A DNA stretch of 58,547 nucleotides, from assembly GCA_027568095.1 (NCBI GenBank), contig GCA_027568095.1_4956.1; one strand, 5' to 3'. The notes under the pieces are model-generated. The model worked only from the letters and a program-made list of their open reading frames with translations. It was not told the DNA's origin and did not search any database. The position numbers were made by a program, and so were the translations under genes. Shown piece by piece: positions 6,465 through 48,881 of this stretch. The number at the start of each line of letters is the position of its first letter. Within the stretch, counting starts at the first letter, position 1. Source of the DNA: a phage.

Positions 6465-7034
6465 TCACAACTCCCCCATCGCTTTAACCAGTGCGTCGTA
6501 GTGTTTGTCAAACGCGGTCAACTGGACGTTCGTTAGTTTGTATTTGGCTTTAAACAATTCACGCTCAACAAGCGCGTATAACTCCTGATTACTTGCGTCT
6601 GACAGGTGAGCAAGCATGAGTTGTTTTTCAGCCAGGTACGTTACAGCAAACTTCGGATCATGTCGGACAATTGAAGATGTGTTATCCAGCAGATCACACA
6701 GTTTTATAGTTTTCACCACAGGTTCAGCCCGTGATAAATGGTCGATGTCCCGTGCTTTACGTTTAACACGGTTGCCGTGGTGTGGACGACTCACATCAGT
6801 AAGCTGATCAATATAACGTGCCACAGTCTCACCGAACTGCGAACACACATCACCCACGGTCACGGGAGTATCTTCAACGACGTCATGCAGCCAGGCAGCG
6901 GTAACCATATCCGGCGTACCACCATAGCGTTTAACCAGTTCAGCAACGTTCCGGCAGTGGTTCACATATGGGTCGTTGGTATACTTACGAAGTTGATCAC
7001 CGTGTGCTGCTGTTGCGAATTGTTCAGGTGTCAT
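6465..7034 (-). CDS. RelA/SpoT-type HD-domain hydrolase (small alarmone hydrolase-like)
   Basis: AAHGDQLRKYTNDPYVNHCRNVAELV...DMVTAAWLHDVVEDT matches the SpoT/Mesh1 HD hydrolase motif pattern; AGAGG RBS. Confidence 0.6.
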   Translation of the reverse strand: MTPEQFATAAHGDQLRKYTNDPYVNHCRNVAELVKRYGGTPDMVTAAWLHDVVEDTPVTVGDVCSQFGETVARYIDQLTDVSRPHHGNRVKRKARDIDHLSRAEPVVKTIKLCDLLDNTSSIVRHDPKFAVTYLAEKQLMLAHLSDASNQELYALVERELFKAKYKLTNVQLTAFDKHYDALVKAMGEL

Positions 7035-8214: not shown

Positions 8215-8423
8215 CCTTTACCACGGATACAACGAATCAGACCACGTTTTTTTAACGCTTGTAAACGGCGATCCAATACGCGAAATCCTTCATATTTAAC
8301 AGTTGCTAATTTTTCACATTCTTCACGAACATCACGAACAAAGATATTCATAAATTCTGTTGGGTGACCACCGATTTTATTTAAAATCAATTTGTCGAGT
8401 TTTTCATATTTGTTAGTTTTCAT
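8199..8423 (-). CDS. hypothetical protein (74 aa)
   Basis: GGCGGG RBS; operon context. Confidence 0.45.
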   Translation of the reverse strand: MKTNKYEKLDKLILNKIGGHPTEFMNIFVRDVREECEKLATVKYEGFRVLDRRLQALKKRGLIRCIRGKGWVKV

Positions 8424-8493
8424 AGTTACCCGCCTATTGATACAGTACGTACTTCTGGGTCATACGATGCTGAAAATTCGTCAGTAACATCTC

Positions 8494-8613
8494 TCACATA
8501 ACGAACGTAATTATTAAATTCACCCCCCCGTGATCATGGTATTTAATGATCACTGTTGCTTCTGGTGGCATTTTCTTTAATTGTTTAATCAACTCACGTA
8601 CTGTCACAGTCAT
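8494..8613 (-). CDS. small protein, possibly truncated at a C7/G7 homopolymer (8523-8529)
   Basis: ATGA overlap with upstream gene; with one extra G the frame would run to TAA at 8426-8428, abutting the next start. Confidence 0.3.
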   Translation of the reverse strand: MTVTVRELIKQLKKMPPEATVIIKYHDHGGVNLIITFVM

Positions 8614-8771
8614 TTCTTCTTACTCCCGGTTACTTTAGCAATCCAATAATTTTCATTAACGCTGGGAAAACTGTTATTGAACTTACACTGACGTTCTTCT
8701 TCTTTTGTCAACGGTTTAAATTTAGAACGACAGGTCAACGTACCGTAAATTGATGTTAAGTTGTCTGACAT
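8610..8771 (-). CDS. small protein (53 aa)
   Basis: GGAG RBS 7 nt upstream of ATG 8771. Confidence 0.4.
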   Translation of the reverse strand: MSDNLTSIYGTLTCRSKFKPLTKEEERQCKFNNSFPSVNENYWIAKVTGSKKK

Positions 8772-8947
8772 AAACTAGTCTCCTTTAGTGCGCAGGTGGT
8801 TTTTCCAGCGGTTTTGCGCCGCGCTGCGTTTATATTTACAAAGTAAAACGTCACCAGAATGTTTAAGTATTACTAACCATTTTCTATTACTGATTCGGAA
8901 TGGTCTATTCTTTTTAATAAATAAAAGTTTTGCCTTGCGGTTTTTCA

Positions 8948-9712
8948 TCACTGGTAATCCTTCAATGCTTTTAACGCTTCAAACTGTTCAGTCGTTAGTT
9001 CGATAAGAATTTTACCGTCTCCCCGAGGTGCCACAGACCATCCGCCACGGATTGCTTCCACTGCAGATCGTACCAGTTTAGCAGGCGGACGACGCGTGAC
9101 TACTGGTTCTTTATCACCTGCTTTAAACTGGCGAATGGCTGCTGATGCACTAATTTCACCGTTCTGAATACGACGTTTAAGTTCCAGTGGCATATCAAGA
9201 ATATTCAGTTGTTCGTAAACATGTTGGACGGTTTTACCAACCTGTGTAGCAATCTGCTCAACACTCATGCCATATGAACGGAAACGACCGTAAATAACAG
9301 CACGTTCAACAGGCGACCACGGTTTACCCTCGTTACCTTTTAACAGTGTCAGGGTCTGTTGCAGTTCGTCACCGGACGATTCAACAACGTCTACTGTCAG
9401 AATCGGCGTCCCGGCTTCAATAGCTGCTAACACGCCACGTAAACGATGCTCACCATCCTGAACATATGGAACACCGTCAACAACCTGTACCACGATGGGT
9501 GGAACGAAATCGCCGTTGGTATAAGCCTGACGAAAGTTTTCAATGTGTGCCAGTGCTGCTTCAGTTTCCCAGTAGTTGTCGGTAAACACACCGCGTGGGT
9601 TATGCCCTGGACGAATCTTGATAATACGCGGATCAATACGATACGCATTACCACGTTTTACATTGGTTTTATCGGTATCAGATAGCTTGCGAAGGGAGTT
9701 AATGTTAGCCAT
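8948..9712 (-). CDS. ParB-like nuclease domain protein with C-terminal HTH
   Basis: DGEHRLRGVLAA ParB/Srx-type motif; later SVEQIATQVGKTVQHVYEQL HTH-like. Confidence 0.55.
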   Translation of the reverse strand: MANINSLRKLSDTDKTNVKRGNAYRIDPRIIKIRPGHNPRGVFTDNYWETEAALAHIENFRQAYTNGDFVPPIVVQVVDGVPYVQDGEHRLRGVLAAIEAGTPILTVDVVESSGDELQQTLTLLKGNEGKPWSPVERAVIYGRFRSYGMSVEQIATQVGKTVQHVYEQLNILDMPLELKRRIQNGEISASAAIRQFKAGDKEPVVTRRPPAKLVRSAVEAIRGGWSVAPRGDGKILIELTTEQFEALKALKDYQ

Positions 9713-9746
9713 TTGTGTTTAGCCTCACGTGTGTTAACTGAGGCTA

Positions 9747-9775
9747 ATTATCGGGGAGGGTTGGCAATCTGTCAA
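9747..9775 (-). promoter_or_regulatory. conserved-family promoter (TTGACA-17-GATAAT) for ParB-like gene
   Basis: Reverse complement of 9770-9788 is AAAATAATTCTTGACA; -10 GATAAT at 9752..9747; overlaps stop of upstream gene. Confidence 0.5.
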
Positions 9776-9778
9776 GAA

Positions 9779-10141
9779 TTATTTTAAGAAGTTGGTCAGC
9801 GGTTCGAAACGTTTTATACAATCAGCAGGTACATAATCAGTGATTGACTCCCACGAAAAACGACCGGGTTTATGTTGTAAATTAGTAGCGTTTATAACAG
9901 CAACACACCATTCATCAACAGAACCACGATAACCCATTATTGATATAGCCTCAACAGGATTAAAGGTAATGAACACGGGGTGGAAACCGTATAAATTATC
10001 ATAACCACAGGAACGGATGGGAACACCTAACCCACGTTGAAAATCAAGATCACCACGAAGAAGTTTTATCCCCGGTACGATACCTTTCATCAGGATACTT
10101 TCACGGTTTTCCACTTTAGTAATATGATACGCATCAACCAT
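9779..10141 (-). CDS. hypothetical protein (120 aa)
   Basis: ORF start overlaps stop of upstream SLOG-like gene. Confidence 0.45.
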   Translation of the reverse strand: MVDAYHITKVENRESILMKGIVPGIKLLRGDLDFQRGLGVPIRSCGYDNLYGFHPVFITFNPVEAISIMGYRGSVDEWCVAVINATNLQHKPGRFSWESITDYVPADCIKRFEPLTNFLK

Positions 10142-10530
10142 ACGGAACCCACACAGTTAAACCAGCTTTTAACATGCGACGGTGCATATCAGCAGTACCA
10201 CGCCCACCGGGGAACACAACACCGTATGTAGGGCGTGGTTCACCCTCTAACATCGCCTGATTACGTTGATGACCTGCAACAGCGTTATAAGGCCCGTGCT
10301 TACCTTGTTTTACAACCGCACCTGGTACAGTCAGATCATCCCACGCTGCCGGGCAACTACGCACAGGAATACTGTGTAACTGCGCCCATTGCTTACACAG
10401 GTTATCAACACCTGACGCACCACCTTCAATTAGTTCGGTAATGGGGGAATTGTTTGTGAAGTAGTCCTAACGCGGAAAATACTGCTGTTCTGTCGTTGAA
10501 GTCACGACCACCTGTAACGACTATTATCAT
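10134..10530 (-). pseudogene. SLOG/DUF2493-like Rossmann-fold protein interrupted by a frameshift in a C5/G5 tract (10443-10447)
   Basis: ATG 10530 (ATGA overlap with MTase-like stop) gives MIIVVTGGRDFNDRTAVFSALGLLHKQFP then stop; +1 frame continues ITELIEGGASGVDNLCKQWAQ...FPGGRGTADMHRRMLKAGLTVWV. Confidence 0.5.
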
Positions 10531-11207
10531 TGTTTATTAGCCTCAAATACAGCGCGAGCAAAACCACGCGGGGTTAATGAACGTAACTGTTTAGTTGTTT
10601 CAGATTTACCACCCAGATATTTCCAGCCCCAGAAAAAGCCGATGTTAATCGGTCCGGGACGTTTTTCAGGCATTCTGAAACCGTTACCGAACCACAGACA
10701 CGTTTTCTTCGTGTACCCGTCAAACATCGGCATTTTAGGGTGAAAAGGTTTATCATCTGTTGTCATATAACCGCCATATTCCCATGGGTGAAAATAAGCG
10801 TCAGGTGTCCCCATCATTTCAGGACGCGATAAAGCACCGACAGGGTTTTCCACCATCCAGGGTACGTTATAACGTTCTCCGAGTTCCCGGATCAGTTTTG
10901 CGTTTGCCAATGCATACTGTAGTTCAGCGTCATCTCGGTCATGTTGCGAACCGCTTTGAGCAAACAGGGTGCAATCCGGAAAACCAAAAATAATTGACGG
11001 TAAAGGTGTTCCCAGTATTTCCTGCTTAATTGCAAATTGTGGGTCAATCCACTGATTAACGTAATGAAGATTTGGGTGATCAGCTTTAATAAAATATTCC
11101 CCGTGATTAGCGGAATCAGCATTAAAACAATAAACCTGATAACCATGTATCGCCCACGGTAAGCCCATAATCCCGGAACCATCGAATAACGACCAGACAA
11201 TTTTCAT
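10527..11207 (-). CDS. DNA methyltransferase-like protein (cytosine-C5-MTase-like motifs)
   Basis: LFDGSGIMG (motif I-like), GFPDC (PC-like), MVENPVGAL (ENV-like); assignment tentative. Confidence 0.4.
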   Translation of the reverse strand: MKIVWSLFDGSGIMGLPWAIHGYQVYCFNADSANHGEYFIKADHPNLHYVNQWIDPQFAIKQEILGTPLPSIIFGFPDCTLFAQSGSQHDRDDAELQYALANAKLIRELGERYNVPWMVENPVGALSRPEMMGTPDAYFHPWEYGGYMTTDDKPFHPKMPMFDGYTKKTCLWFGNGFRMPEKRPGPINIGFFWGWKYLGGKSETTKQLRSLTPRGFARAVFEANKQ

Positions 11208-11419
11208 CCTTCTGTCTCCTCGACGATCCGCGTGATTTTAACAGGCGCAATTGTTACTTTTCTACAATTGAAACCCTGATCGCGAAGTGCTTTAAGTGCA
11301 ACCCCAGCCATGTAAGTTGAACTGAACAGAGTAGCTTCACTGATATCGACCCAGGTAATCCGGGTATCAATATGTGCATAACGGTCTTCTTTTTTGATTA
11401 CAGCACCGAACTCAGTCAT
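11204..11419 (-). CDS. hypothetical protein (71 aa)
   Basis: ATGA overlap with downstream gene. Confidence 0.4.
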   Translation of the reverse strand: MTEFGAVIKKEDRYAHIDTRITWVDISEATLFSSTYMAGVALKALRDQGFNCRKVTIAPVKITRIVEETEG

Positions 11420-11609
11420 GATCGTTTTTCACTCCCCACATGCAAGCGCCAATTGATGCCGCAGCCGCTAATAATCCAAGACCAGCCAGAAACCACCACG
11501 GCGTTTCCGCATGATTACCACGTGTCATTAGTCCGACAATACAAGACGCGAGCGTTACGGACACAAGGAAAACAATAACAGTAATTAAACGGTCAAATAT
11601 GTTTTTCAT
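11412..11609 (-). CDS. small membrane protein (2 predicted TM)
   Basis: Hydrophobic segments ITVIVFLVSVTLASCIVGL and WWFLAGLGLLAAAASIGA. Confidence 0.45.
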   Translation of the reverse strand: MKNIFDRLITVIVFLVSVTLASCIVGLMTRGNHAETPWWFLAGLGLLAAAASIGACMWGVKNDHD

Positions 11610-11850
11610 GGTTTTTACCTTTCCTATATTCAGGATAGAATTTTGACATAGGCCATACCCAGAATTTAAAAATCATTTTGAAAGTATCTAATTGTGGGTA
11701 AGCATCAAACATACTCTGTTGATGTGTGTCCCAACCACTTTCGTCAGAATAATAAAAATCAATCATTTTTCTTTGTATGACAGCACAAATAATTATACGT
11801 ATAACGATGATTATCCAAAATACAAGTATGAAAATACTAGTTATTAACAT
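11593..11850 (-). CDS. small membrane protein (about 85 aa)
   Basis: First ATG at 11850 with GGAAG RBS; N-terminal TM ITSIFILVFWIIIVIRIIICAVI. Confidence 0.4.
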   Translation of the reverse strand: MLITSIFILVFWIIIVIRIIICAVIQRKMIDFYYSDESGWDTHQQSMFDAYPQLDTFKMIFKFWVWPMSKFYPEYRKGKNHEKHI

Positions 11851-12076
11851 GGTTTTTCTTCCAGTTCCATTCGCGACGTGCAGCCGCTGATGTTGTTTGA
11901 TAAGTGTGACCACAGGATTTACAACGACAGGTGTAAGCGTTTCCGTTTTTACCTGTTACATCAACATTTTCCCAGTTGCGTGTACCAAACCCTAATAAAT
12001 AATCACGTAGATTTCGCTCATAACATTTACTACAACGTAACGAACGAGTTCGACGACATGATCCACGACCACCCAT
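11837..12076 (-). CDS. zinc-finger protein (79 aa)
   Basis: AAGGTG RBS 8 nt upstream; Cys pairs CSKC...CRCKSCGH. Confidence 0.45.
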   Translation of the reverse strand: MGGRGSCRRTRSLRCSKCYERNLRDYLLGFGTRNWENVDVTGKNGNAYTCRCKSCGHTYQTTSAAARREWNWKKNHVNN

Positions 12077-12078
12077 TA

Positions 12079-12291
12079 TTAGTTCACCTTAGCCCACACA
12101 AGTTTATGAATAGACGTTCTGTATTTTCGCGCGGTTATATTAAAATCATGACCCTCGTGATAAATACTTTCGTGTTTCTTGAAGCTGTTAGCAATTAACG
12201 TGAAAGGTAATAGTTGCTTCAGACGATAAAAATAAAACCGTGTTCCGTTAGGACACTGTGAAAGTCTCATTAATCGGTAGCGTGGTTTCAT
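12079..12291 (-). CDS. hypothetical protein (70 aa)
   Basis: AAGGAG RBS 8 nt upstream of ATG 12291, downstream of promoter at 12323-12352. Confidence 0.45.
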   Translation of the reverse strand: MKPRYRLMRLSQCPNGTRFYFYRLKQLLPFTLIANSFKKHESIYHEGHDFNITARKYRTSIHKLVWAKVN

Positions 12292-12322
12292 AACAATCAC
12301 TCCTTGTTCACTTGATGTACAG

Positions 12323-12352
12323 ACTATAGCGCACACATCTGTAATTCGTCAA
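12323..12352 (-). promoter_or_regulatory. conserved-family promoter (TTGACG-18-TATAGT)
   Basis: Reverse complement of 12347-12365 is AAAATAATTCTTGACG. Confidence 0.5.
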
Positions 12353-12381
12353 GAATTATTTTACACATCCTTGTGCAATGA

Positions 12382-14736
12382 CTAACCGTTACTCGCAGGT
12401 GGGAAAGGCACTACATTAGCTGTTGACTGAAAAGGGAGAAGACGAATACCCCTGAAACCGTTTAGTCGAACGTTATTTATATTAACAACGTCTTTTTTCA
12501 CTTTACCACGAAGTGTGGATTTAAATGCCCGACTAAATGAAGTTTTAGTCATTGCTGGACCACCTTCCTGTGTTTTCCAGAGACGATAACGACCATATAG
12601 TTCTTCAGTGTGCACCTCACCATCAGATACCAATTCGCAACAATCTCTGATAAAACTTCTAAGTGGTGATTGTTGATCCATAATTTCCTGACGTTCTTCC
12701 AGACTTGCTTTTGGTTCAGTAAACCGTCCGTTAGCACGTAACCGTTGCAAACCTTCAATCGCCCAGTTACAGATCCCAGGTAGTTCTTTCATCAGTCGTG
12801 CTTCCAGAGTGGTGTCTTCACGACCCAGGAACGAAACGTTGAATGGCAGGATCAGCAAACGGTTAGCCATTGCACCGGAATCATCAGCAAATGCCGGGAT
12901 GTTGTTAGCAGCCAGTGTCATACGTCCCGGTAAACGACCGTTCCACGCACCTTTATACTTACGATTAACCGGAATCGCATCACAACCTGTAATAGATTTG
13001 AAACGGTCCAGAATTCGGTTGCGATCAGGCCCGGACACACTGTGAGCATCACCAATAAACAGCACAGATTTATCCAGCACAGTTTCAAGTACCGCATCAC
13101 TTGCTAAACCCTCCAGTGTGATCCCTGCATATGCTTCGTCACCTACCAGTGCCTGAATAATACGACCGATCGTACCTTTACCGGAACGTGGCGCACCAAT
13201 CAACAGCATCGCTTTCTGATAGTCATACGAGTTGACAAGCATATAACCCAGCCATTCCTGCAACAGTGCAATACGTTCCTGATCACCTTCCAGAGTTGTA
13301 TTAAGAAACTGTTCAAATGCTGGCGCACGGGCAAACGGATCGTAGCTATACGGTAAAATACTGGTCGTAAAGAAATCCGGGTTATGTGCATCACATTTGC
13401 CCGTGTGTACATCCAGTATTCCGTTCTGACAAACAATATAGTGTGATACATCAACGCCGGGCCATGTTCCAAGCTCACGATCAGCCCGTGTGAATAAATA
13501 CGACAATACCTTGTACGTACCATTGATCACGTCAGCTTTTGGTTCGCTGGCAAGCATTGCCATAGAAATTTGATGTTTCAGTTCATCTTCACTGACACGT
13601 TCCCACACGCGACCGTTGAACCGGTACGGCTGTTGCTGGACGAAAATCAATGTGTTGTTCGGATAATAATTATTAACGAACGTGGATGCGTTAACCGTGT
13701 GGTTTGAACCATATGCACCTTCACCGGGTTTCACACTCATGTACGCAGGTGTTCCACCATTAGGAACGATTGTAGGCGCTGGTGTGACTGCTTTCATCAG
13801 TTCTGGTGTCAGCGTCGGTTGACTACGATAAACCGTATCACAACGTTCCACAGCGCCCAGAATTGTGTTTTCACGGTAATCCTGACGATCTGTCCATTTA
13901 CCACGAACCAGTCCGGAACGGTTAAATAGACGTTCAATACGTTCGCAATCTTTCCCGGTCCAGAAAGCAAGGTGTGAGCACAGAGCAGCATCAGCGGCAG
14001 ATGCATTGTAGTCTTTTCCCTGGTCGCTGGGATATGACACAGACAGGCGTTCAACGTTTGCATTCCACAGATCCGCAAATGACGCTTTATTACCAAATAC
14101 TGAAGCAGCACTGGACGAATTTAACGCCATTTTAATCAGTTCATCATCGTCTGCCGGGCCTGACCAGTCATCACAGGGTGCTGTTGTCCAGCGTGCGGAA
14201 CGGTCTGAACGGATACGACCATACCGGGCAATAGAATCATGAATGCCCTGGGTATAATCAATATCAACATCACCATTACCCGTGAGCGTCATCGCGACGA
14301 AACGATCACGCCAGTACATTTCCAGCCCGGTTTTCTGGTCGTTCAGACTGTTAAAACCTTCCGGTATGCTGGTATAAGCACAGATGATATGCAAACCTGT
14401 TCCTGACTGACTGACTTCAGTGTAAGCATTTGGGAAACGGTTTACGAATTCATGCGCCAGTGGTGACCATGTAGCTGTTGCCTGATCTACCAGACAGTTA
14501 TCAACATCAATAAAGAAATAAGGATCGTTTTCTGTGAATACAAAACCAACACCAGACATACCGTACATTTGTGCCATACCTAACGCGGTGTGATAGTCAG
14601 ACCAGTCGTTAGGGTTAGTGGTACTGGCTTTATAACCGTGTACCGGGCTATATGGTACTTTCGTTGGTTTTGGACGATCGGCGACTGTCTCAAGTCGCCA
14701 CATGACCCACTGTTTACGGTTCAGTAACCCTTTCAT
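12382..14736 (-). CDS. DNA primase/helicase (primase-like N-terminus + P-loop NTPase helicase)
   Basis: 784 aa; Walker A GAPRSGKGT; GGAGCG RBS. Confidence 0.65.
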   Translation of the reverse strand: MKGLLNRKQWVMWRLETVADRPKPTKVPYSPVHGYKASTTNPNDWSDYHTALGMAQMYGMSGVGFVFTENDPYFFIDVDNCLVDQATATWSPLAHEFVNRFPNAYTEVSQSGTGLHIICAYTSIPEGFNSLNDQKTGLEMYWRDRFVAMTLTGNGDVDIDYTQGIHDSIARYGRIRSDRSARWTTAPCDDWSGPADDDELIKMALNSSSAASVFGNKASFADLWNANVERLSVSYPSDQGKDYNASAADAALCSHLAFWTGKDCERIERLFNRSGLVRGKWTDRQDYRENTILGAVERCDTVYRSQPTLTPELMKAVTPAPTIVPNGGTPAYMSVKPGEGAYGSNHTVNASTFVNNYYPNNTLIFVQQQPYRFNGRVWERVSEDELKHQISMAMLASEPKADVINGTYKVLSYLFTRADRELGTWPGVDVSHYIVCQNGILDVHTGKCDAHNPDFFTTSILPYSYDPFARAPAFEQFLNTTLEGDQERIALLQEWLGYMLVNSYDYQKAMLLIGAPRSGKGTIGRIIQALVGDEAYAGITLEGLASDAVLETVLDKSVLFIGDAHSVSGPDRNRILDRFKSITGCDAIPVNRKYKGAWNGRLPGRMTLAANNIPAFADDSGAMANRLLILPFNVSFLGREDTTLEARLMKELPGICNWAIEGLQRLRANGRFTEPKASLEERQEIMDQQSPLRSFIRDCCELVSDGEVHTEELYGRYRLWKTQEGGPAMTKTSFSRAFKSTLRGKVKKDVVNINNVRLNGFRGIRLLPFQSTANVVPFPPASNG

Positions 14737-20690: not shown

Positions 20691-22547
20691 ATGTCAGATG
20701 CTTACGTTCACGATATTGAAAACTATCCTAATGTTTTTCTGTTCGGTGCTATTCACGCGTTAACTGAAACACCTTATATTTTTGAGATTTCACATCGTCG
20801 CGATGATCGTCAGGCTTTTTACTTATTCACGGAATATTTGCGTGAACATCGTGCTGAAGAAGTTGGTTATAACAATCTGGGTTACGACTATCCTGTTCAG
20901 CATTCTATTTTGAACAACATCATGTATATCACCAATGCAGACATTTATAAAAAAGGTGATTCGATAATTAACGCTGGTGATGAAAATCGTTTTGCTCATA
21001 TGGTGTGGGAAAAAGACTGGATAGTTCCCCAGCTTGATTTGTATAAAATTCATCATTTCGACAATCAGGCAAAACGAACAAGTCTGAAAACACTTGAATT
21101 CAATATGAGAATGGAAAACATTGAAGACCTCCCATTTACGCCAGGGACTTACTTAACCGATTCTCAAATTGATACGCTTCGTCAATATCTGATACACGAT
21201 TTGAAAGCGACTTTGATGTTTTATAAACACAGTAAAAAGCTGATCGATTTTCGTCGTGAACTTTCTGCTAAATACGGTCGTAATTTCATGAACCATAATG
21301 ACACGAAAATCGGTAAAGACTATTTCATTATGGAACTTGAAAAATCAGGTATTCAATGTTTCGAACCAGGTAGCAGAAAACCACGACAGACGCACAGACT
21401 ATCAATCGCATTGAACAGTGTGATTTTCCCTTATGTCCGTTTTGAACAGCCTGAATTTAATCGTGTTCTTAACTGGTTACGTCAACAGGTCATCACTGAA
21501 ACAAAAGGTGTATTCACAGATTTAAGCGCAGACATTAACGGGTTCTCGTTTGATTTTGGTACGGGTGGTATCCACGGGTCTATTGAGTCTCAAACTATCA
21601 GGTCCACTGAAAATTATGTGATCATCGATCTGGATGTAGCCAGTTTTTATCCAAACCTTGCAATTAGTAATGAACTTTACCCTGCACATTTGGGAAAACA
21701 ATTTTGCACCATTTATAAAAATGTTTACGACATGCGTTCCAGTTACCCGAAAGGTACACCAGAAAACGCAATGTTAAAACTGGCGTTAAACGGTGTGTAT
21801 GGTGACAGTAATAACGTATACAGTCCGTTCTATGATCCTGCTTACACAATGGCCATTACGATTAACGGACAGTTACTTTTGTGTATGTTGGCAGAAGAAC
21901 TTCTGAAAATCCCTGGTTTATCCATGATCCAGGCTAACACAGATGGTCTTACAGTTTACGTACCACGAGTATTTACCGGACAAGTAGAACAGGTTCGTCA
22001 CACGTGGGAAAAATTAACCAGACTCCAGCTTGAAGAAGCGATTTATGACGTGATGTTTATTCGCGACGTAAATAACTACATCGCTGTTTACGAAGGTGGT
22101 AAGAAAGTTAAACGTAAAGGTGCTTATTGTCACAGTGTTGATCTGGGTTGGCATCAAAACCACAGTATGCAGGTTGTTGCAAAAGCGGCTGAGGCAGCAC
22201 TGGTACACAATAAAGATATTCGTGATTTTATAACATCACACGAAGATATTCACGATTTCATGTTAGTGACGAAAGTACCGCGTAACAGTAAATTACTATG
22301 GGGTGATAAACAGGTTCAAAACATCACTCGTTATTATGTCAGTACAGATGGTGCACCGTTGACAAAAGTCATGCCACCACTGGCAAAATCACTGAAACTG
22401 AACCCTGACGCGCCTGAACGCCGTATGTCAGTGTGCAAAGGTTGGTTGACCACGGAGTGTAACGACATGAAACGTTTTAACCGGGCAACGCTAAATTATG
22501 ATTTTTATATCAAAGAAGCTGAAAAACTCGTTGCACCACTTCGGTAA
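20691..22547 (+). CDS. DNA polymerase, family B-like with N-terminal 3'-5' exonuclease motifs
   Basis: 618 aa; Exo I HDIEN, Exo III YLIHD; DLDVASFYPN (motif A-like), KLALNGVYG (motif B-like), NTDGL (motif C-like). Confidence 0.55.
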   Translation: MSDAYVHDIENYPNVFLFGAIHALTETPYIFEISHRRDDRQAFYLFTEYLREHRAEEVGYNNLGYDYPVQHSILNNIMYITNADIYKKGDSIINAGDENRFAHMVWEKDWIVPQLDLYKIHHFDNQAKRTSLKTLEFNMRMENIEDLPFTPGTYLTDSQIDTLRQYLIHDLKATLMFYKHSKKLIDFRRELSAKYGRNFMNHNDTKIGKDYFIMELEKSGIQCFEPGSRKPRQTHRLSIALNSVIFPYVRFEQPEFNRVLNWLRQQVITETKGVFTDLSADINGFSFDFGTGGIHGSIESQTIRSTENYVIIDLDVASFYPNLAISNELYPAHLGKQFCTIYKNVYDMRSSYPKGTPENAMLKLALNGVYGDSNNVYSPFYDPAYTMAITINGQLLLCMLAEELLKIPGLSMIQANTDGLTVYVPRVFTGQVEQVRHTWEKLTRLQLEEAIYDVMFIRDVNNYIAVYEGGKKVKRKGAYCHSVDLGWHQNHSMQVVAKAAEAALVHNKDIRDFITSHEDIHDFMLVTKVPRNSKLLWGDKQVQNITRYYVSTDGAPLTKVMPPLAKSLKLNPDAPERRMSVCKGWLTTECNDMKRFNRATLNYDFYIKEAEKLVAPLR

Positions 22548-22586
22548 ACCGTATAGAATTATTTAAAACTTATTGAGACGATAACA

Positions 22587-23123
22587 ATGCATACTTCACA
22601 CAAATTTGTAGCTGGTTCACCGATTGGTGTCTTTACTCCCGGTAAAATTTACAACCGTGTTGACGGGTTCACCCGTGATGGTCGTTCCCGTGGTTTTTAT
22701 ATTGATGACCGTGGTGAATTCCGTTTAACAGACGATGACATGTTCGAACCTGCAGAACAGATCCAACTTCGTTTACCACAGATGCCAATGTTCCCGGCCC
22801 GTCAGGAACGTCTGAAACTGGCTGCACGCTGGGGAACATCTGAAATCAGTATCAGTAACTGGTACAAAGTTGATGACCTGATGAAACCGTGGCGCATCAG
22901 TGACGCTATCTGTGGCACTCGTGTTCTTACAGAACCTAATACAACGACGTTTAAACCCGGTGAACTGGCTGAACTGGCTAATTCCCGTGGTTATCTATTG
23001 TCAGAACTATCCGTTCGTTGGGGATGGCATTACGGATGTGAAACTTTACACACTATCAGCACGGATCCGCGTCGTGTTGCACTTATCTGGGATATGTTAG
23101 AAGGGATGAATCGTCATGACTGA
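22587..23123 (+). CDS. hypothetical protein (178 aa)
   Basis: ORF in plus replication block. Confidence 0.5.
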   Translation: MHTSHKFVAGSPIGVFTPGKIYNRVDGFTRDGRSRGFYIDDRGEFRLTDDDMFEPAEQIQLRLPQMPMFPARQERLKLAARWGTSEISISNWYKVDDLMKPWRISDAICGTRVLTEPNTTTFKPGELAELANSRGYLLSELSVRWGWHYGCETLHTISTDPRRVALIWDMLEGMNRHD

Positions 23124-23457
23124 TTACAGTAAGATGGACGATAGAGATATTGATCGCCTTGTTTTGAAAGTTATTTACGGTGTTCATGCTGACGATAAAG
23201 ATATCCAAATTTGTTGGTCACGGGGCGGTTTCAAATATACCATTAATCCGACTGACGCAATGCCGATTATTATTGAAAATAAGATTAGCATTGCGTTTGA
23301 CACTAATGAAAACGAATGGTTAGCCTGGGGTGATTTTGAATTTGATCAATGTGGTTGGGATATGATTAACGAACCTACAATTTATTGTTCTCACGCTAAC
23401 CCACTCCGTGCCGCAATGATTGTGTTCTTACAGATGCAGGAAAACAACCATGATTAA
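23116..23457 (+). CDS. hypothetical protein (113 aa)
   Basis: ORF start overlaps upstream stop. Confidence 0.5.
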   Translation: MTDYSKMDDRDIDRLVLKVIYGVHADDKDIQICWSRGGFKYTINPTDAMPIIIENKISIAFDTNENEWLAWGDFEFDQCGWDMINEPTIYCSHANPLRAAMIVFLQMQENNHD

Positions 23458-23803
23458 ACTCTGTTACATTGCCGGGCCTTATCGTGCTGATTGTGCGCTT
23501 AAAACATCCCGTAACGTGTCGCGCGCTGAACAGGCAGGTAAACGACTTGCTTTACAACGTCCGGGATGGTTCCCGGTTATTCCTCACAAGAACACCGAAT
23601 TGTGGGACTTTGACGGCGGTTTACGCAATATACAACCTGAATACTACCTGTCAGGCACATTAGAAGTTATGCGCCGCTGTGACGCTATTCTGGTGCTTCC
23701 TGATTATCGTCGTTCATCCGGTACGCTGGCAGAAATTGCAGAAGCTGAACGTCTGGGTATTCCTGTGTATTACAGCGTGGAGAGTGTACCGGAACATGGC
23801 TAA
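23450..23803 (+). CDS. nucleoside 2-deoxyribosyltransferase-like (Rossmann-like) protein
   Basis: ATG 23450; MIKLCYIAGPY...DAILVLPDYRRSSGTLAEIAEAERLGIPVYY resembles the NDT-like fold pattern. Confidence 0.4.
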   Translation: MIKLCYIAGPYRADCALKTSRNVSRAEQAGKRLALQRPGWFPVIPHKNTELWDFDGGLRNIQPEYYLSGTLEVMRRCDAILVLPDYRRSSGTLAEIAEAERLGIPVYYSVESVPEHG

Positions 23804-24317
23804 AGACAACTGGGAAACACCGTGGGATTTTATTGATAACGTTTCTCGTGAATTCCCACTTGTTCTTGATGTGTGTACCGATGGTTCTAACGCTAAATGT
23901 TCGTTGTTTATCACTGATAGTCTGAATAAAGACTGGCATTCGATTGTTCAAAGTAATGGTGGTGGGTTCGTCTGGTGTAACCCACCGTACAGCGATCCGT
24001 CTCCCTGGGTTAATAAAATAATAACCACTGTTCATCAGGGAACTGGTTCGTTATTACTCGTAAACGCTATGACGTCTGCAGACTGGTTTCACAAAGCGCT
24101 GACACATTGTTCAGAACTATGGGTATTCAAAGGTCGTATTGCGTTTGTAGATCCTGATAACGGGTTACCAGCAGGAGGAAATGATCGTTCACAGGTAATG
24201 TTTATTTTCGACCCGTATCGTATCGGTGAATGTAAAACGAGATCTGTAAAAGTTTCTGACTATCAGAAAATAAAACGACAAGCGTACAGGAGTTATTGTT
24301 ATGTCCACAATCGTTGA
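23796..24317 (+). CDS. dam: DNA N6-adenine methyltransferase (Dam-like)
   Basis: ATG 23796; ETPWDFID...LDVCTDG and NPPY catalytic motif (VWCNPPYSDP). Confidence 0.6.
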   Translation: MAKDNWETPWDFIDNVSREFPLVLDVCTDGSNAKCSLFITDSLNKDWHSIVQSNGGGFVWCNPPYSDPSPWVNKIITTVHQGTGSLLLVNAMTSADWFHKALTHCSELWVFKGRIAFVDPDNGLPAGGNDRSQVMFIFDPYRIGECKTRSVKVSDYQKIKRQAYRSYCYVHNR

Positions 24318-45375: not shown

Positions 45376-46299
45376 TTGACTAAACGAAAAACAGAACATG
45401 AAAGACTTTCAGAGATTTCAGAAATTTGCAAAGGTACTATTTATCATTTTGTTAGATTCTTAAATGGTTACAAGAATGCATCAAGTAGACTAATAATGCA
45501 TTGTCAAAAACATGGTGAATGGGAAACATCCTCTGATTTGATAGTGAATGGTAGAAATTTTTGTAAGAAATGTAGTAATGAGAACATAGCACTAAAAAAT
45601 AGTATAGACCAAAAAGAATATGAAAAACGTATCACTAATATTTGTAACTCGCGAGGTTATAAATTTATAAAATGGATTGAAAATTATCATGGTGTTCGCA
45701 CAAAAGCATTAATAGAATGTACTAAACATGGTCAGTGGGTGTCTTCCGGCAACAACATTACTATAAATAAAAGTTTCTGTAAGAAATGTTATTTTGAAAA
45801 TAAAAAGACACCATTACATATAAGAGAAAAAGAGATAAATGAAAAATGTTTGTCATTAAATTATGAATTTTTGGGTTGGGTCAATGGGTATGTTAATCAA
45901 TACAGTAAGATAAAAATTAAATGTCAAAAACATGGTGAATTTATAACAACACCTACAACATTATTACATACTGGCAGACGTTGTGCAGGTTGCGCTACAA
46001 CAGGTTTTAAAATCAAAAACAAAGCTAGCTTATATGTTTTAAGATCTCTATGTGGTAGTTATGTTAAAATAGGTATTAGCAACAATGTTGAAAATAGAAT
46101 AAAAATATTGAAGAAAAGAACACCTTTCGAATTCAATGTTATTGAAATATATAATTCTGATGGTAAAACCATTCGTTCACTTGAAAAAGATTTTCATTCT
46201 CATTTTGAGTCAGCAGAGTTGACTGGGTTCGATGGTTGTACTGAGTGGTTAAAATGGAATCCAAATATAACCACTCTAATACGTATAATCACGGGATAA
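45376..46299 (+). CDS. GIY-YIG/T5orf172-like nuclease domain protein with three Cys-rich repeats
   Basis: C-terminal LYVLRS...YVKIGIS...R...E pattern; three CxKHGxW...CKKC repeats; visibly AT-rich. Confidence 0.5.
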   Translation: MTKRKTEHERLSEISEICKGTIYHFVRFLNGYKNASSRLIMHCQKHGEWETSSDLIVNGRNFCKKCSNENIALKNSIDQKEYEKRITNICNSRGYKFIKWIENYHGVRTKALIECTKHGQWVSSGNNITINKSFCKKCYFENKKTPLHIREKEINEKCLSLNYEFLGWVNGYVNQYSKIKIKCQKHGEFITTPTTLLHTGRRCAGCATTGFKIKNKASLYVLRSLCGSYVKIGISNNVENRIKILKKRTPFEFNVIEIYNSDGKTIRSLEKDFHSHFESAELTGFDGCTEWLKWNPNITTLIRIITG

Positions 46300-47248
46300 C
46301 ATTTATATCTTGAGGGAGAGAATAAGCAACCCTGCAACGGCAATTAATCACATTCGCTGCACTACCGTTAGGATCACGAGGGAACATAAGTGGTCCTAAC
46401 GGCGTTGAAAACGGTCTGTCCATTGGTATCCAACCATTCGTTTCACCTGTGGAAATATGCGCGTCACGTGTCCGACCATCCTTCCTATACAACCAACGTT
46501 TTAATAATTCATTACTGATCGACCCCGTAACCTGACCCTGACGAATAGCCTGGTCCTGACCAACGGATATAGCACGAAGTGATTCAGTACGCGCTATTGT
46601 CTCTGTACGCTGTTTTACGTAACGCAAGCGTGTCTGTTCGATTATCTGGTCAATCTTCGCCTGTGATAGTTTCCCGGCACTTACAGCGTTCTTTGCACTG
46701 TCTGTAACAGTGGTCAGACTATTCACATAACCTGCTTCACCTTTTTCCAGTGCTGATCGCAGACGTTGAACCGTCATTTCCTGCCGTGTGGTTAACCCTA
46801 TTGATGATCGAAAATCACGGGCTATCTGACGCGGATTTCGTCCAGTTACCACACCTTGGTTAACAGCAATCTGAACAGCTTTGACTGTTTCGTCACTGAC
46901 TTCACGGATCAGTTGTCCGACATAATTGTTGATGTATGTACTGACCTGTGGGGTGACCAGACTGAACACAACCGGACCTGTTACAGCCGCTTTCGGTAGA
47001 ACCTGAACGACTACACGACCTGATTCGGCGATCGCATCTTCAATAACCGGGCGCAACTGTGCACTAAGTTCATCAGGGAGTGTTTCAAGAATGGGAAGTA
47101 ATCCGGCAATACCCTGAGTTTCAATGATGTATTCCAGGTTAGCTAACGACTCACTACGACGCACGTTTTCCCACACGACATCAAGTGCTTCGCGAATGCG
47201 AGCGTCATACTTGTCTGAAATATCCGGGTATGGGTCTTTAGTAGCCAT
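46289..47248 (-). CDS. head morphogenesis protein (Mu F-like position)
   Basis: 319 aa between portal and scaffold genes. Confidence 0.45.
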   Translation of the reverse strand: MATKDPYPDISDKYDARIREALDVVWENVRRSESLANLEYIIETQGIAGLLPILETLPDELSAQLRPVIEDAIAESGRVVVQVLPKAAVTGPVVFSLVTPQVSTYINNYVGQLIREVSDETVKAVQIAVNQGVVTGRNPRQIARDFRSSIGLTTRQEMTVQRLRSALEKGEAGYVNSLTTVTDSAKNAVSAGKLSQAKIDQIIEQTRLRYVKQRTETIARTESLRAISVGQDQAIRQGQVTGSISNELLKRWLYRKDGRTRDAHISTGETNGWIPMDRPFSTPLGPLMFPRDPNGSAANVINCRCRVAYSLPQDINVIP

Positions 47249-47254
47249 AAAAAA

Positions 47255-47286
47255 GCCTCAGTTAACACACTGAGGCCGATTATATC
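47255..47286 (-). promoter_or_regulatory. TG-extended -10 (TGATATAAT) followed by GCCTCAG/CTGAGGC hairpin and U6 abutting the start codon
   Basis: Minus strand reads cgTGaTATAATcggCCTCAGtgtgttaaCTGAGGcttttttATGgct. Confidence 0.45.
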
Positions 47287-47616: not shown

Positions 47617-47831
47617 TATAATAGTTCCCCTCTGTCACGTGCCACACGTTCGATTAACCGAATCGTGGCAGACCGTTTATCACCGTCATAAGGTTCTTCA
47701 TAACGAAGATCATCTGTAAAAACGATCTGTTCACGGTCACAGTGAATAACAATAATGTCGTATTTAACCAGAAGGTCGAATGCTTGTTCACCGTTCATTG
47801 TTAAGATATTCCTCTGCGTGTAATGCAGCAT
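47616..47831 (-). CDS. small acidic hypothetical protein (71 aa)
   Basis: ORF; operon context. Confidence 0.4.
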   Translation of the reverse strand: MLHYTQRNILTMNGEQAFDLLVKYDIIVIHCDREQIVFTDDLRYEEPYDGDKRSATIRLIERVARDRGELL

Positions 47832-48606
47832 AGCTGATCAAGTCTTCCAGACTGTCACGATGTGGTGTTTCAGTGTTGGAATAGAAACGAACCGCTTTTA
47901 ACAACATCAGAAACAACCACCCTTCGCCCGGTGTTAAGTCGCGCCCGGTAATTGTGTTAAACGCAGCAACGATTTTAGCTGACGAACGTTCCTGACCAGA
48001 CGTGTCATACTGCTTACCACGTTCTGTCAGTAGCTGTTCAGCCTGTTTCAGTAAGTCAGACGCTGTTGATGGTTGTTGAACGGGTGTGAATGTACACCGA
48101 CAATTTGACGGTGGTGTTGGTCTAGGTGCACTGGTTACTGTTGATGGTTGCTGAACAGGTGTGAATAGATGCGCCAGGTGTAAGTCTGCTAATGACTGTT
48201 GTTCATATTTTGTTATTTCATCATTGGTGCGAACAGCATAACCATGTTCGACTAACTGGTCGTCATTCCACCCATTTGCAATGAATTCGTCATAAGTGTT
48301 CTCACGGGCTTTCGGTGTCATAAACAGTTTTGTTTTGACAGGTGTTGCAGGACCACAAGGGCGTTTTTCAAAGATTTCAAAGTCATCAGCATTCTCCATG
48401 ATTTGTGGCGGATTTCTTAAAATTGGTGCGTGAATTGAACCATCAGACCATGCAAAAGTGTTTGTTGTCTTATTAAGAACAACACATGTAGCCCAGTCTG
48501 GCGCTTCACTCCAGTCTACTTGTTGTGTTTTCATTCGATAGTCAAGTGATTGTTTTTCACTTTCAGCATCATATGCAGGTATGTTCCACGGTTGTTCAAA
48601 CATCAT
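47788..48606 (-). CDS. hypothetical protein with internal FIAxGWNDxQL motif and TPVQQPST repeats
   Basis: YDEFIANGWNDDQLVEHGY matches C-terminus of 19711..20610; duplicated FTPVQQPST. Confidence 0.5.
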   Translation of the reverse strand: MMFEQPWNIPAYDAESEKQSLDYRMKTQQVDWSEAPDWATCVVLNKTTNTFAWSDGSIHAPILRNPPQIMENADDFEIFEKRPCGPATPVKTKLFMTPKARENTYDEFIANGWNDDQLVEHGYAVRTNDEITKYEQQSLADLHLAHLFTPVQQPSTVTSAPRPTPPSNCRCTFTPVQQPSTASDLLKQAEQLLTERGKQYDTSGQERSSAKIVAAFNTITGRDLTPGEGWLFLMLLKAVRFYSNTETPHRDSLEDLISYAALHAEEYLNNER

Positions 48607-48713: not shown

Positions 48714-48881
48714 ATGACTAATGAAGATGTTGCTAAACAATTGCGAGAAATCGCGGATCTGATTGATAGTGGTGAACTTTTACCAATTCGTGTCCGTAAA
48801 TACACCGAGATTTTAGATCGACAAGGTTCTCTTGAAATTGATTTTTTACTAGTAAAACAAGAGGAATTAAACAATGACTAA
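48714..48881 (+). CDS. small protein (55 aa)
   Basis: GAGGAA RBS 7 nt upstream; overlaps dUTPase start. Confidence 0.4.
   Translation: MTNEDVAKQLREIADLIDSGELLPIRVRKYTEILDRQGSLEIDFLLVKQEELNND

What the first reader, a model, noticed from the sequence alone, without database searches (positions are those of the whole stretch)
8948..11419. Clustered ParB-like nuclease, SLOG/DUF2493-like and methyltransferase-like genes: possible DNA modification or anti-restriction module
Four translationally coupled minus-strand genes: a methyltransferase-like protein (10527..11207), a SLOG/DUF2493-like Rossmann protein (10134..10530, frameshifted), an unknown (9779..10141) and a ParB-like nuclease-domain protein (8948..9712) with its own conserved promoter. 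ParB-like domains and SLOG-type nucleotide-binding domains are recurrent partners of DNA-modifying enzymes in phages, and the genome also encodes a Dam-like MTase and an NDT-like protein at 23450-24317. Together this suggests an uncharacterised DNA modification or nucleotide-processing pathway; it is a hypothesis from co-location only.
Basis: inference. Interest (0 to 1): 0.5.

Follow-up and report, generated by a model that had tools for sequence, protein, structure and literature searches.

The report
Phage accessory genes: methylase, ART, ParB
This stretch of a 9NA-like phage genome holds four independently swappable accessory genes (a compact cytosine methylase, a frameshifted nucleotide-binding SLOG gene, a previously unrecognised small ADP-ribosyltransferase-like gene and a ParB-like DNA binder) and not one DNA-modification pathway.

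Summary
The window is a Sashavirus/Nonanavirus (9NA-like) siphophage genome. 10527-11207 encodes a compact C5-cytosine DNA methyltransferase-fold protein. 10134-10530 is a YAcAr/DUF2493 SLOG gene broken by one extra C at 10443-10447; all relatives checked have it intact. 8948-9712 is a ParB/Spo0J-type N-domain plus HTH protein behind a conserved promoter and hairpin.

Across about 20 related loci the methylase, SLOG gene and slot gene are each gained or lost separately. The slot after SLOG carries an ART, a NADAR hydrolase, an HNH or nothing. A sister phage with ParB and intact SLOG is reported as markedly restriction-sensitive. The methylase family occurs alone in about 70 unrelated phage loci.

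A single four-gene modification pathway is therefore not supported. The better reading is three units: an orphan methylase, a mobile SLOG-ART NAD/ADP-ribose cassette, and a ParB-like DNA binder. Most of this is ordinary and already annotated in relatives. The ART identification is a modest new lead.

The parts
11204..11419 (-). 71-aa protein of unknown function (phrog_26050). Its stop codon overlaps the MTase start by 4 nt.
   Evidence: It is present upstream of the MTase slot in nearly all 9NA-like loci, including those that lack the MTase.
10527..11207 (-). Compact (226 aa) C5-cytosine DNA methyltransferase-fold protein, an orphan MTase of family phrog_757.
   Evidence: phrog_757 at 4e-79. 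Invariant motifs FDGSG, FP-x-C, ENP and LRSLTPRGFA, in register with M.HaeIII. Model pLDDT 87.6. The top Foldseek PDB hits are C5 DNA MTases: 3g7u, DNMT3A/B and DNMT2. 11 of 26 relatives hit PF00145. dN/dS 0.01-0.08 against orthologous alleles.
10134..10530 (-). YAcAr (DUF2493) SLOG gene, frameshifted in this window.
   Evidence: In the repaired frame dN/dS is 0.04-0.12, so the frameshift is either very recent or a sequencing error.
10443..10447 (-). C5 homopolymer that carries the extra C disrupting the SLOG gene after codon 28. Relatives have C4.
   Evidence: It is the only gene-internal indel in the roughly 7.7 kb aligned with BDX09P1.
9779..10141 (-). 120-aa ADP-ribosyltransferase-fold protein, DarT/Tpt1-like, from a rare family not annotated anywhere.
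9747..9775 (-). Sigma-70-type promoter TTGACA-17-GATAAT that drives ParB and the downstream genes.
   Evidence: Conserved in Sasha, PDP46, Bas82, AVIO78A, PJ16 and KP13-27.
9719..9747 (-). Conserved palindrome or 5'-UTR stem-loop (TTAGCCTCA-N11-TGAGGCTAA) directly after the -10 box. It is a candidate operator or RNA element.
   Evidence: -12.2 kcal/mol, z -3.3. There is one compensatory T.A to C.G change in KP13-27. A second copy lies at 47255-47276.
8948..9712 (-). ParB/Spo0J-family protein with a ParB N-domain (Box II-like GEHRLRG) and a ParB HTH. No ParA partner was found.
   Evidence: phrog_1033 at 2e-58. HTH_ParB 28.4 bits, above the cut-off. TIGR00180 at 2.5e-9, below its cut-off. Spo0J 1vz0 at 2e-7. 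dN/dS 0.08-0.18.
8610..8951 (-). Two small co-transcribed genes downstream of ParB: 58 aa (phrog_1380) and 53 aa (DUF2737-like).

Best explanation
This region is part of the leftward early accessory-gene array that follows the primase gene of a virulent 9NA-like siphophage. It contains three functionally separate units, not one pathway.

1. An orphan, compact C5-cytosine DNA methyltransferase. It most likely methylates a short motif in replicating phage DNA with SAM and so blocks the matching host type II restriction enzymes. The fold and motifs are shown. The activity and the target motif are inferred.

2. A small mobile NAD+/ADP-ribose cassette. It consists of a YAcAr SLOG nucleotide-binding or nucleotide-processing protein followed by a variable partner. 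In this phage the partner is a minimal ADP-ribosyltransferase-fold protein, which probably uses NAD+ to ADP-ribosylate a host or nucleic-acid target early in infection. In sister phages the same slot holds NADAR, an ADP-ribosyl-glycohydrolase domain whose phage members counter DarTG1. In this genome the SLOG half is inactivated by a +1C frameshift, unless that is a sequencing error, and the ART gene is intact. The fold, synteny and frameshift are shown. The catalysis and the target are inferred.

3. A ParB/Spo0J-type HTH protein transcribed from its own conserved promoter. It most likely binds specific phage DNA sites as a nucleotide-dependent DNA clamp or regulator. It has no ParA and is not a nuclease. 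The nearly lineage-wide conservation and the domain architecture are shown. The role is inferred.
For: Identity of the phage:
- The region matches Sashavirus/Nonanavirus genomes at 95%.

Methyltransferase:
- C5-MTase motifs and fold and very strong purifying selection.
- It occurs without SLOG in about 70 loci from unrelated phages; four of these have a ParB-like ORF within 6 kb.

SLOG gene:
- The frameshift is unique among the relatives.

ART-fold gene:
- Invariant His6 and Glu98.

The SLOG-adjacent slot:
- It holds ART in the window, BDX09P1, L088 and L103.
- It holds NADAR (PF08719, 1e-22 and 4e-17) in AVIO78A, KP13-27, L007 and L010.
- It holds HNH, a 76-aa ORF or nothing in other loci.
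- In a second phage lineage SLOG and ART are adjacent with a 4-nt overlap, inserted at a different genomic position, in a DNA polymerase-to-Dam block that the window shares in the same gene order but without the insert.

Literature:
- Viral YpsA-like SLOG domains are predicted to act on ADPr derivatives and lie next to NADAR or Macro domains (PMC9503650).
- Phage NADAR proteins neutralise DarTG1 (PMC11825919).

Independent gain and loss:
- The MTase, SLOG and slot genes vary independently.
- Bas82, which has ParB and SLOG, is RM-sensitive.

ParB:
- Homology to Spo0J, Noc and KorB, and a conserved promoter and palindrome.
- No ParA is annotated in the relative PDP46.
Against: - No biochemical data exist for any of the four proteins.
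- The MTase lacks a recognisable large target-recognition domain and scores below Pfam thresholds.
- The ART model rests on only 9 sequences, with a low-confidence loop at residues 29-41. The middle residue of an H-Y-E triad could not be placed. The protein is neutral (pI 6.8), unlike typical DNA-binding enzymes, and only half the size of DarT.
- SLOG lies within two genes of a DNA MTase in both lineages: C5-MTase in one and Dam or an N6_N4 MTase in the other. This could reflect a real SLOG-MTase link that my reading dismisses.
- ART occurs without SLOG (L084-87, L098/99), and SLOG often occurs without ART, so even the cassette is loose.
Confidence: 0.6

Rival explanations
1. The MTase, SLOG, the unknown gene and ParB act together as one DNA-modification or anti-restriction pathway. 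For example, ParB would target DNA, the MTase would modify it, and SLOG would process a nucleotide intermediate.
For: - The genes are tightly packed and partly translationally coupled.
- SLOG is adjacent to a C5-MTase here and sits two genes from Dam or an N6_N4 MTase in a second lineage.
- ParB-fold to MTase fusions are common in phages.
- A few T1-like loci carry a ParB-like gene within 6 kb of the same MTase family (L022, L024, L037).
Against: - Each gene is lost or swapped independently within the lineage.
- The MTase family stands alone in about 70 other phage loci.
- The SLOG gene is broken here while the others are intact.
- Bas82 (ParB plus SLOG) is RM-sensitive.
- ParB has its own promoter.
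Confidence: 0.1
2. The 120-aa ART-fold protein is a true nucleic-acid ADP-ribosyltransferase that works like DarT. The locus would then encode a DNA modification after all, but by ADP-ribosylation of host or competitor DNA or RNA. SLOG would act as a sensor or processor of the ADPr products. The NADAR found in sister phages would be the opposing activity.
For: - The best structural and profile matches are DarT and DarT1.
- ART and NADAR were never seen together at the sampled loci, and each lies immediately after SLOG wherever SLOG is present.
- The SLOG-ART pair moves as a cassette between lineages.
Against: - Matches to DarT HMMs are below threshold (11.4 versus 22.5 bits), and PADLOC finds nothing.
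- The protein is half the length of DarT and lacks obvious basic DNA-binding surface (pI 6.8).
- The ART fold alone does not reveal the substrate. AcrIF11, Alt and Mod enzymes target proteins.
Confidence: 0.15
3. The ART-fold protein is not a transferase. It could be a non-catalytic NAD+/ADPr-binding decoy or sponge. Alternatively it could be a Tpt1-derived NAD+-lobe that acts in RNA repair together with a host factor.
For: - 30% identity over 79 residues to the NAD+ lobe of an RNA 2'-phosphotransferase.
- Very small size.
- Faster evolution than its neighbours (dN/dS 0.23-0.33 in divergent pairs).
Against: - His6 and Glu98 are invariant across members down to 29% identity, which suggests retained catalysis.
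- The Tpt1 RNA lobe, which holds most of that enzyme's catalytic tetrad (from my own knowledge of Tpt1), is absent.
Confidence: 0.12
4. The ParB-like protein is a plasmid-type partition factor that supports a carrier or pseudolysogenic state.
For: Homology to Spo0J/ParB N-domain plus HTH. Relatives are annotated as 'ParB-like partition protein'.
Against: - No ParA is annotated in PDP46.
- The N-terminus has no LG(R/K)GL ParA-binding motif (sequence; motif from PMC12704722).
- 9NA has no lysogeny-type genes and is virulent (PMC4153490).
- No cluster of repeated parS-like sites was found.
Confidence: 0.05

Closest known systems
Orphan phage/prophage C5-cytosine DNA methyltransferases (PF00145; e.g. 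PDB 3g7u from prophage CP-933R; compact DNMT3-type catalytic domains)
   Same: Same Rossmann MTase fold. Same motif order: I (FxGxG), IV (catalytic Cys), VI (ENV-like) and a IX-like RxLTPRx motif. It is a stand-alone gene with no cognate restriction enzyme.
   Different: Only 226 aa, with no recognisable large target-recognition domain. Motif IV reads P-D-C-T, not PCQ, and motif VI reads ENP. The window protein gives no PF00145 hit (E <= 1), and only 11 of its 26 aligned relatives match at all (best E 3e-6). The target sequence is unknown.
Viral YpsA-like/YAcAr SLOG domains with NADAR or Macro neighbours (Burroughs 2015; Iyer et al. 2022, PMC9503650)
   Same: PF10686 member with the TGGRD loop and the GxD signature. 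It is a stand-alone early gene. NADAR lies immediately downstream in sister phages.
   Different: In this window the gene is frameshifted. The downstream partner is an ART-fold protein, not a hydrolase. I did not find that pairing in the sections of that survey I read.
DarT/DarT1 DNA ADP-ribosyltransferases of DarTG toxin-antitoxin defence systems
   Different: 120 aa against about 210 aa. Below the DarT HMM thresholds. No antitoxin partner. Encoded by a virulent phage, not by a host defence locus. Substrate unknown.
Tpt1/KptA RNA 2'-phosphotransferase
   Same: The NAD+-binding lobe is the closest match by sequence among structural hits (30% identity over 79 residues).
   Different: The whole N-terminal RNA-binding lobe is missing.
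Small phage ART enzymes used for counter-defence or host takeover (AcrIF11; T4 Alt/ModA/ModB)
   Same: Phage-encoded, early-expressed ART-superfamily enzymes. AcrIF11 is of similar small size (from my own knowledge plus PMC12421852).
   Different: No detectable sequence relationship was tested or found. Different ART clade from Alt and Mod (R-S-E).
ParB/Spo0J, Noc and KorB CTP-dependent DNA-binding proteins
   Same: ParB N-domain plus ParB-type HTH. Box II-like GEHRLRG. A promoter-proximal palindrome, reminiscent of KorB operators.
   Different: No ParA. Short C-terminus. Box III diverged (GNEGK against ENLQR). Encoded by a virulent phage. Binding site and nucleotide specificity unknown.

Membership tests
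C5-cytosine DNA methyltransferase (PF00145) | Motif I FxGxG (SAM binding) | tested here: met
   F8-D9-G10-S11-G12 are invariant in 26 sequences and aligned to M.HaeIII motif I.
C5-cytosine DNA methyltransferase (PF00145) | Motif IV Pro-Cys catalytic nucleophile | tested here: met
   P77 and C79 are invariant. The motif reads FP(D/P)CT, with canonical PPC in 6 of 26 members. It aligns to M.HaeIII PPCQ.
C5-cytosine DNA methyltransferase (PF00145) | Motif VI ENV glutamate | tested here: met
   E120-N121-P122. The Glu is present in 25 of 26 members. Aligned to M.HaeIII ENV.
C5-cytosine DNA methyltransferase (PF00145) | Score above the Pfam gathering threshold | tested here: not met
   The window protein gives no hit at E <= 1. 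11 of 26 relatives hit, with a best E of 3e-6.
C5-cytosine DNA methyltransferase (PF00145) | C5-MTase three-dimensional fold | tested here: met
   Foldseek probability 1.0 to 3g7u, DNMT3A/B, DNMT2 and ZMET2, with TM about 0.5. Model pLDDT 87.6.
C5-cytosine DNA methyltransferase (PF00145) | Target-recognition domain and demonstrated m5C formation | not testable with these tools
   Only about 80 residues lie between motif VI and the IX-like motif. The activity needs an experiment.
YAcAr / DUF2493 SLOG (PF10686) | HMM score above the gathering threshold | tested here: met
YAcAr / DUF2493 SLOG (PF10686) | GxD/E substrate-binding signature of the YpsA clade (PMC6459960) | tested here: met
   G40-V41-D42 are invariant in 6 sequences.
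YAcAr / DUF2493 SLOG (PF10686) | Intact open reading frame in this genome | tested here: not met
   +1C at 10443-10447. The product stops after 34 aa.
DarT (PF14487) | HMM score above threshold | tested here: not met
   11.4 bits against a cut-off of 22.5, covering only residues 5-21. No PADLOC hit.
DarT (PF14487) | ART fold with conserved His (beta1) and catalytic Glu | tested here: met
DarT (PF14487) | Adjacent DarG (Macro) or NADAR antitoxin | tested here: not met
   No NADAR homologue anywhere in the window (tblastn). The next element downstream is the promoter and ParB. Macro domains were not specifically searched for.
DarT (PF14487) | ADP-ribosylation of ssDNA bases | not testable with these tools
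   Needs a biochemical assay.
Tpt1/KptA RNA 2'-phosphotransferase | Two-lobed enzyme with an N-terminal RNA lobe | tested here: not met
   The protein is 120 aa and its model starts directly with beta1 of the ART lobe. Only the NAD+ lobe matches.
ParB/Spo0J (TIGR00180, PF17762) | ParB-type HTH | tested here: met
   PF17762 at 28.4 bits against a cut-off of 22.6.
ParB/Spo0J (TIGR00180, PF17762) | Canonical full-length ParB score (TIGR00180) | tested here: not met
   37.2 bits against a cut-off of 58.45.
ParB/Spo0J (TIGR00180, PF17762) | Box II GERRxRA and Box III ENLQR nucleotide-binding motifs | tested here: inconclusive
   GEHRLRG aligns to GERRYRA. GNEGK aligns to ENLQR.
ParB/Spo0J (TIGR00180, PF17762) | ParA partner and ParA-binding LG(R/K)GL motif | tested here: not met
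   No ParA is annotated in the relative PDP46. The motif is absent from the N-terminus (sequence).
ParB/Spo0J (TIGR00180, PF17762) | Cognate parS-like binding sites | tested here: inconclusive
   The only candidate is a conserved palindrome at 9719-9747 with a second copy at 47255-47276.

The most novel reading that the evidence does not exclude
The 120-aa protein founds a new minimal ART family that phages use offensively to ADP-ribosylate nucleic acid, in the manner of DarT, or a defence protein. It travels with a SLOG partner as a two-gene NAD+/ADP-ribose cassette. Sister phages swap it for NADAR. If so, this one slot would record both sides of a DNA-ADP-ribosylation arms race.
Probability: 0.15. 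Interest if true: 0.75.

Novelty: new member of a known kind. Interest (0 to 1): 0.4.

Why it matters
- It removes a tempting but unsupported "new DNA hypermodification pathway" from the list. The methylase, SLOG and ParB genes are ordinary and already annotated in relatives.
- It gives a fold and a testable function to a gene that every database calls hypothetical. ART enzymes are reported in only about 3% of siphoviruses (PMC9503650).
- A 120-aa DarT/Tpt1-like ART sitting in the slot where sister phages carry the anti-DarT NADAR hydrolase is a compact, tractable system. It could be used to ask what small phage ARTs target and what viral SLOG domains do.

Tried and rejected
Searches that found nothing useful:
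- Direct Pfam, NCBIfam and PADLOC scans of the MTase and the 120-aa protein gave nothing significant.
- Sequence searches of PDB with single proteins gave nothing.
- The exhaustive representative search with the 120-aa profile added only three true relatives. It also returned two long multi-repeat proteins (P0128, 5455 aa; P0129, 1660 aa). P0129, the one I inspected, is a eukaryotic bromodomain protein matching only through an FSWES-type repeat, and I discarded both as spurious.
- The afdb50 fold library was unavailable.
- The 9NA-like genomics paper, Zeng et al. 2019 (PMC6819911), is not held.
- Rfam found no family in 8400-12400.

Ideas considered and rejected:
- That the ParB promoter is a repeated genomic element: it is unique in the window, and only the hairpin has a second copy.
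- That the SLOG frameshift is programmed: all relatives checked carry an uninterrupted ORF at C4, and neither fragment retains both the TGGRD loop and the GxD motif.
- A ParABS partition system: no ParA was found.
- A DarTG-like toxin-antitoxin pair: no NADAR is present in this window, and I did not search for Macro domains.
- A general link between this MTase family and SLOG or ParB: it was not seen in 70 non-9NA loci.
Full report
**Context.** The 58.5-kb window is a complete or nearly complete genome of a 9NA-like virulent siphophage (Sashavirus/Nonanavirus). The region 8700-11700 is about 95% identical to Sashavirus BDX09P1, Escherichia phages PDP46 and PJ16, Salmonella phages Sasha, Sergei and Solent, and BASEL phage Bas82 KarinMuster. 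The finding lies in a leftward array of tightly packed small genes that follows the primase gene at 12382-14736.

**Observation.**
- The stop and start codons overlap for the 71-aa gene (11204-11419) and the MTase (4 nt), for the MTase and SLOG (4 nt), and for SLOG and the 120-aa gene (8 nt).
- ParB follows a 66-nt spacer with a near-consensus TTGACA-17-GATAAT promoter (11 of 12 matches) and a hairpin or palindrome.
- This promoter-hairpin unit is conserved upstream of ParB, or of a 76-aa ORF plus ParB, in Sasha, PDP46, Bas82, AVIO78A, PJ16 and the more distant Klebsiella phage KP13-27. KP13-27 has one compensatory change that extends the stem.
- The RNA fold is -12.2 kcal/mol, z -3.3.
- The SLOG gene is 397 nt long because of one extra C in a C-run at 10443-10447. 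PDP46, Sasha and Bas82 have C4. The closest relative, BDX09P1, also has an intact gene.
- In the repaired frame the gene shows dN/dS of 0.04-0.12. The lesion is therefore very recent or a sequencing error.

**Methyltransferase (10527-11207).**
- Pfam, NCBIfam and PDB sequence searches are silent on the single sequence. It belongs to phrog_757, "DNA methyltransferase" (4e-79).
- The family has more than 600 clusters of proteins of about 225 aa. Where the sources name an origin, these come from enterobacterial phages and bacterial genomes (Salmonella, Serratia).
- An alignment of 26 members keeps FDGSG (motif I), FP-x-C-T (motif IV, Cys invariant), ENP (motif VI) and LRSLTPRGFA (IX-like) invariant or nearly so.
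- The family profile aligns motifs I, IV and VI in register with M.HaeIII, although at a non-significant E-value. 11 of 26 members touch PF00145, best 3e-6.
- The AlphaFold model (pLDDT 87.6) retrieves C5 DNA methyltransferases first: 3g7u from prophage CP-933R, then DNMT3A/B, DNMT2 and ZMET2.
- dN/dS against orthologous alleles is 0.01-0.08.
- I conclude that this is a compact, probably active, orphan C5-cytosine MTase. Its target motif is unknown.

**SLOG gene (10134-10530).** The repaired protein hits PF10686 YAcAr (formerly DUF2493) at 3.6e-19. [quoted passage not shown] As encoded here, neither the 34-aa N-terminal product nor the 76-aa GTG-start ORF retains both elements.

**The "unknown" gene (9779-10141).**
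- Only about a dozen clusters exist in 5.8 billion proteins, and three further true relatives in the 1.8-billion representative library.
- Only 3 of 50,697 phage records carry it: BDX09P1, FSL SP-062 and SP069. Where the records are annotated (SP-062, SP069) it is called hypothetical; BDX09P1 has no annotation.
- The nine-sequence alignment shows invariant Y5-H6-x-T8, S15, G20, R36, Y47, P55-V56-F57-x-T59 and E98.
- Sequence profiles independently put DarT first in PDB (E 0.026) and in Pfam (0.078-0.26, below threshold).
- BFVD returns the SP069 orthologue and then small phage ART, Tpt1 and DarT-like proteins.
- It is therefore an ART-fold protein with a conserved His and Glu, about half the size of DarT, and without the RNA lobe of Tpt1.
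- It is under purifying selection but evolves faster than its neighbours (dN/dS 0.23-0.33 in the four divergent comparisons).

**ParB-like gene (8948-9712).**
- It hits phrog_1033 (2e-58), HTH_ParB above the cut-off and TIGR00180 below the cut-off.
- It is significantly similar to Spo0J/ParB (best E 2e-7) and more weakly to Noc (0.004); the KorB match (E 0.14) is not significant.
- GEHRLRG aligns to Box II GERRYRA. Box III has diverged.
- No ParA is annotated in the relative PDP46.
- Nothing indicates nuclease activity.

**Are the genes one module?** I tabulated about 20 9NA-like loci. The order is primase, small genes, U71, [MTase], [SLOG], [slot], promoter, ParB.
- The MTase is missing from Bas82, AVIO78A, 536P12 and L103. 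In Sasha it is replaced by an allele only 51% identical.
- SLOG is missing from 9NA itself and from L084-87.
- The slot holds the ART (window, BDX09P1, L084-88, L103), NADAR (AVIO78A, KP13-27, L007, L010; PF08719 at 1e-22 and 4e-17), an HNH endonuclease, a 76-aa ORF or nothing.
- ParB is almost universal.
- Of 80 viral loci that carry the MTase family, only the 9NA-like ones have SLOG within 6 kb. The other 70 or so, mostly contigs of about 49 kb that look T1-like in size, carry the MTase alone.
- These data argue against an obligate four-gene pathway.

**What does hold together.**
- In a second, unrelated phage lineage (DUF2800, Enc34-type SSB, a 705-aa protein at the position where the window encodes its DNA polymerase), a 62%-identical SLOG and a 40%-identical ART are again adjacent with a 4-nt overlap.
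- There they are inserted between a U120b-like gene and a DUF7768-Dam pair.
- The window has the same gene order without the insertion: polymerase, U120b-like gene, a 113-aa ORF, DUF7768, Dam, at 20691-24317.
- SLOG, with or without ART, therefore behaves as a mobile cassette.
- Viral YpsA-like SLOG domains have been predicted to bind or cleave ADP-ribose-derived molecules and to lie next to NADAR and Macro domains (PMC9503650).
- Phage NADAR proteins neutralise DarTG1 by removing ADP-ribose from DNA (PMC11825919).
- The ART/NADAR alternation next to SLOG fits an NAD+/ADP-ribose theme better than a methylation theme.
- The link is loose. ART occurs without SLOG (L084-87, L098/99) and SLOG often occurs without ART.
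- One caveat remains. In both lineages the cassette lies within two genes of a DNA MTase, and the MTases are of different families. This could be chance within insertion-tolerant accessory regions, or a real association.

**Verdict.** The best reading is three independent units:
1. an orphan compact C5-MTase for restriction evasion;
2. a SLOG-ART NAD+/ADP-ribose cassette whose SLOG half is broken in this genome;
3. a promoter-driven ParB-type DNA-binding protein.

Most of this is ordinary and already annotated in relatives. The new element is the recognition of a rare minimal ART-fold family and its alternation with NADAR.

Noticed in passing
window 47255-47276 (and 9719-9747): A second copy of the GCCTCAGTTAACACAC-TGAGGC hairpin lies just upstream of the start of a MuF-like head-morphogenesis gene (46289-47248, minus strand). 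On the minus strand it is followed by T6, so it looks like a terminator there. The two copies could be a shared operator for the ParB-like protein or a shared RNA element.
   Followed up: partly
window 23450-24317; loci L096, L107, L109, L112: The DUF7768 (NDT/DNPH1-like) to Dam gene pair of the window is conserved in a second phage lineage. In L107 the Dam gene is replaced by a non-homologous N6_N4 MTase (PF01555) at the same position. This suggests a functional link between the NDT-like protein and adenine methylases.
   Followed up: partly
window 6468-7034 (-): A 189-aa gene in the same leftward array is 98% identical to PDP46_0095. Relatives annotate it inconsistently as a RelA/SpoT (p)ppGpp synthetase, a metal-dependent phosphohydrolase or a polyphosphate hydrolase. 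It may be another nucleotide-signal-directed accessory gene.
   Followed up: no
window 47791-48525 (-) and 48874-49374 (+): A homologue (62% identity) of the PDP46 gene annotated 'nucleotide modification associated domain 1' sits next to a dUTPase gene. I did not examine whether it bears on DNA modification.
   Followed up: no
L002 (Salmonella phage Sasha) 3864-4565: The MTase in the same slot of Sasha is only 51% identical to the window's, while the flanking genes are 95-98% identical. This is an allelic replacement and would fit diversification of methylation specificity.
   Followed up: partly
BFVD hits A0A6J5LAB8, A0A2D1G7W0, A0A411AZ66: Weak structural matches (E 0.005-0.05) of the ART model to domains inside large 'ParB/Sulfiredoxin' or 'ParB-like nuclease domain' proteins of mycobacteriophages and uncultured phages. 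These hint at ART-ParB fusions elsewhere.
   Followed up: no
window 22782-23111 (+): The 178-aa ORF downstream of the DNA polymerase gene is homologous (36% identity) to the 120-aa gene that precedes SLOG in the second phage lineage. This shows that the polymerase-to-Dam block keeps the same gene order in the two lineages.
   Followed up: partly
L092 (Sashavirus 536P12): In this relative only short fragments matching ParB remain, and the MTase is absent. It seems to have suffered a deletion across the locus, which shows that ParB is not strictly essential.
   Followed up: no
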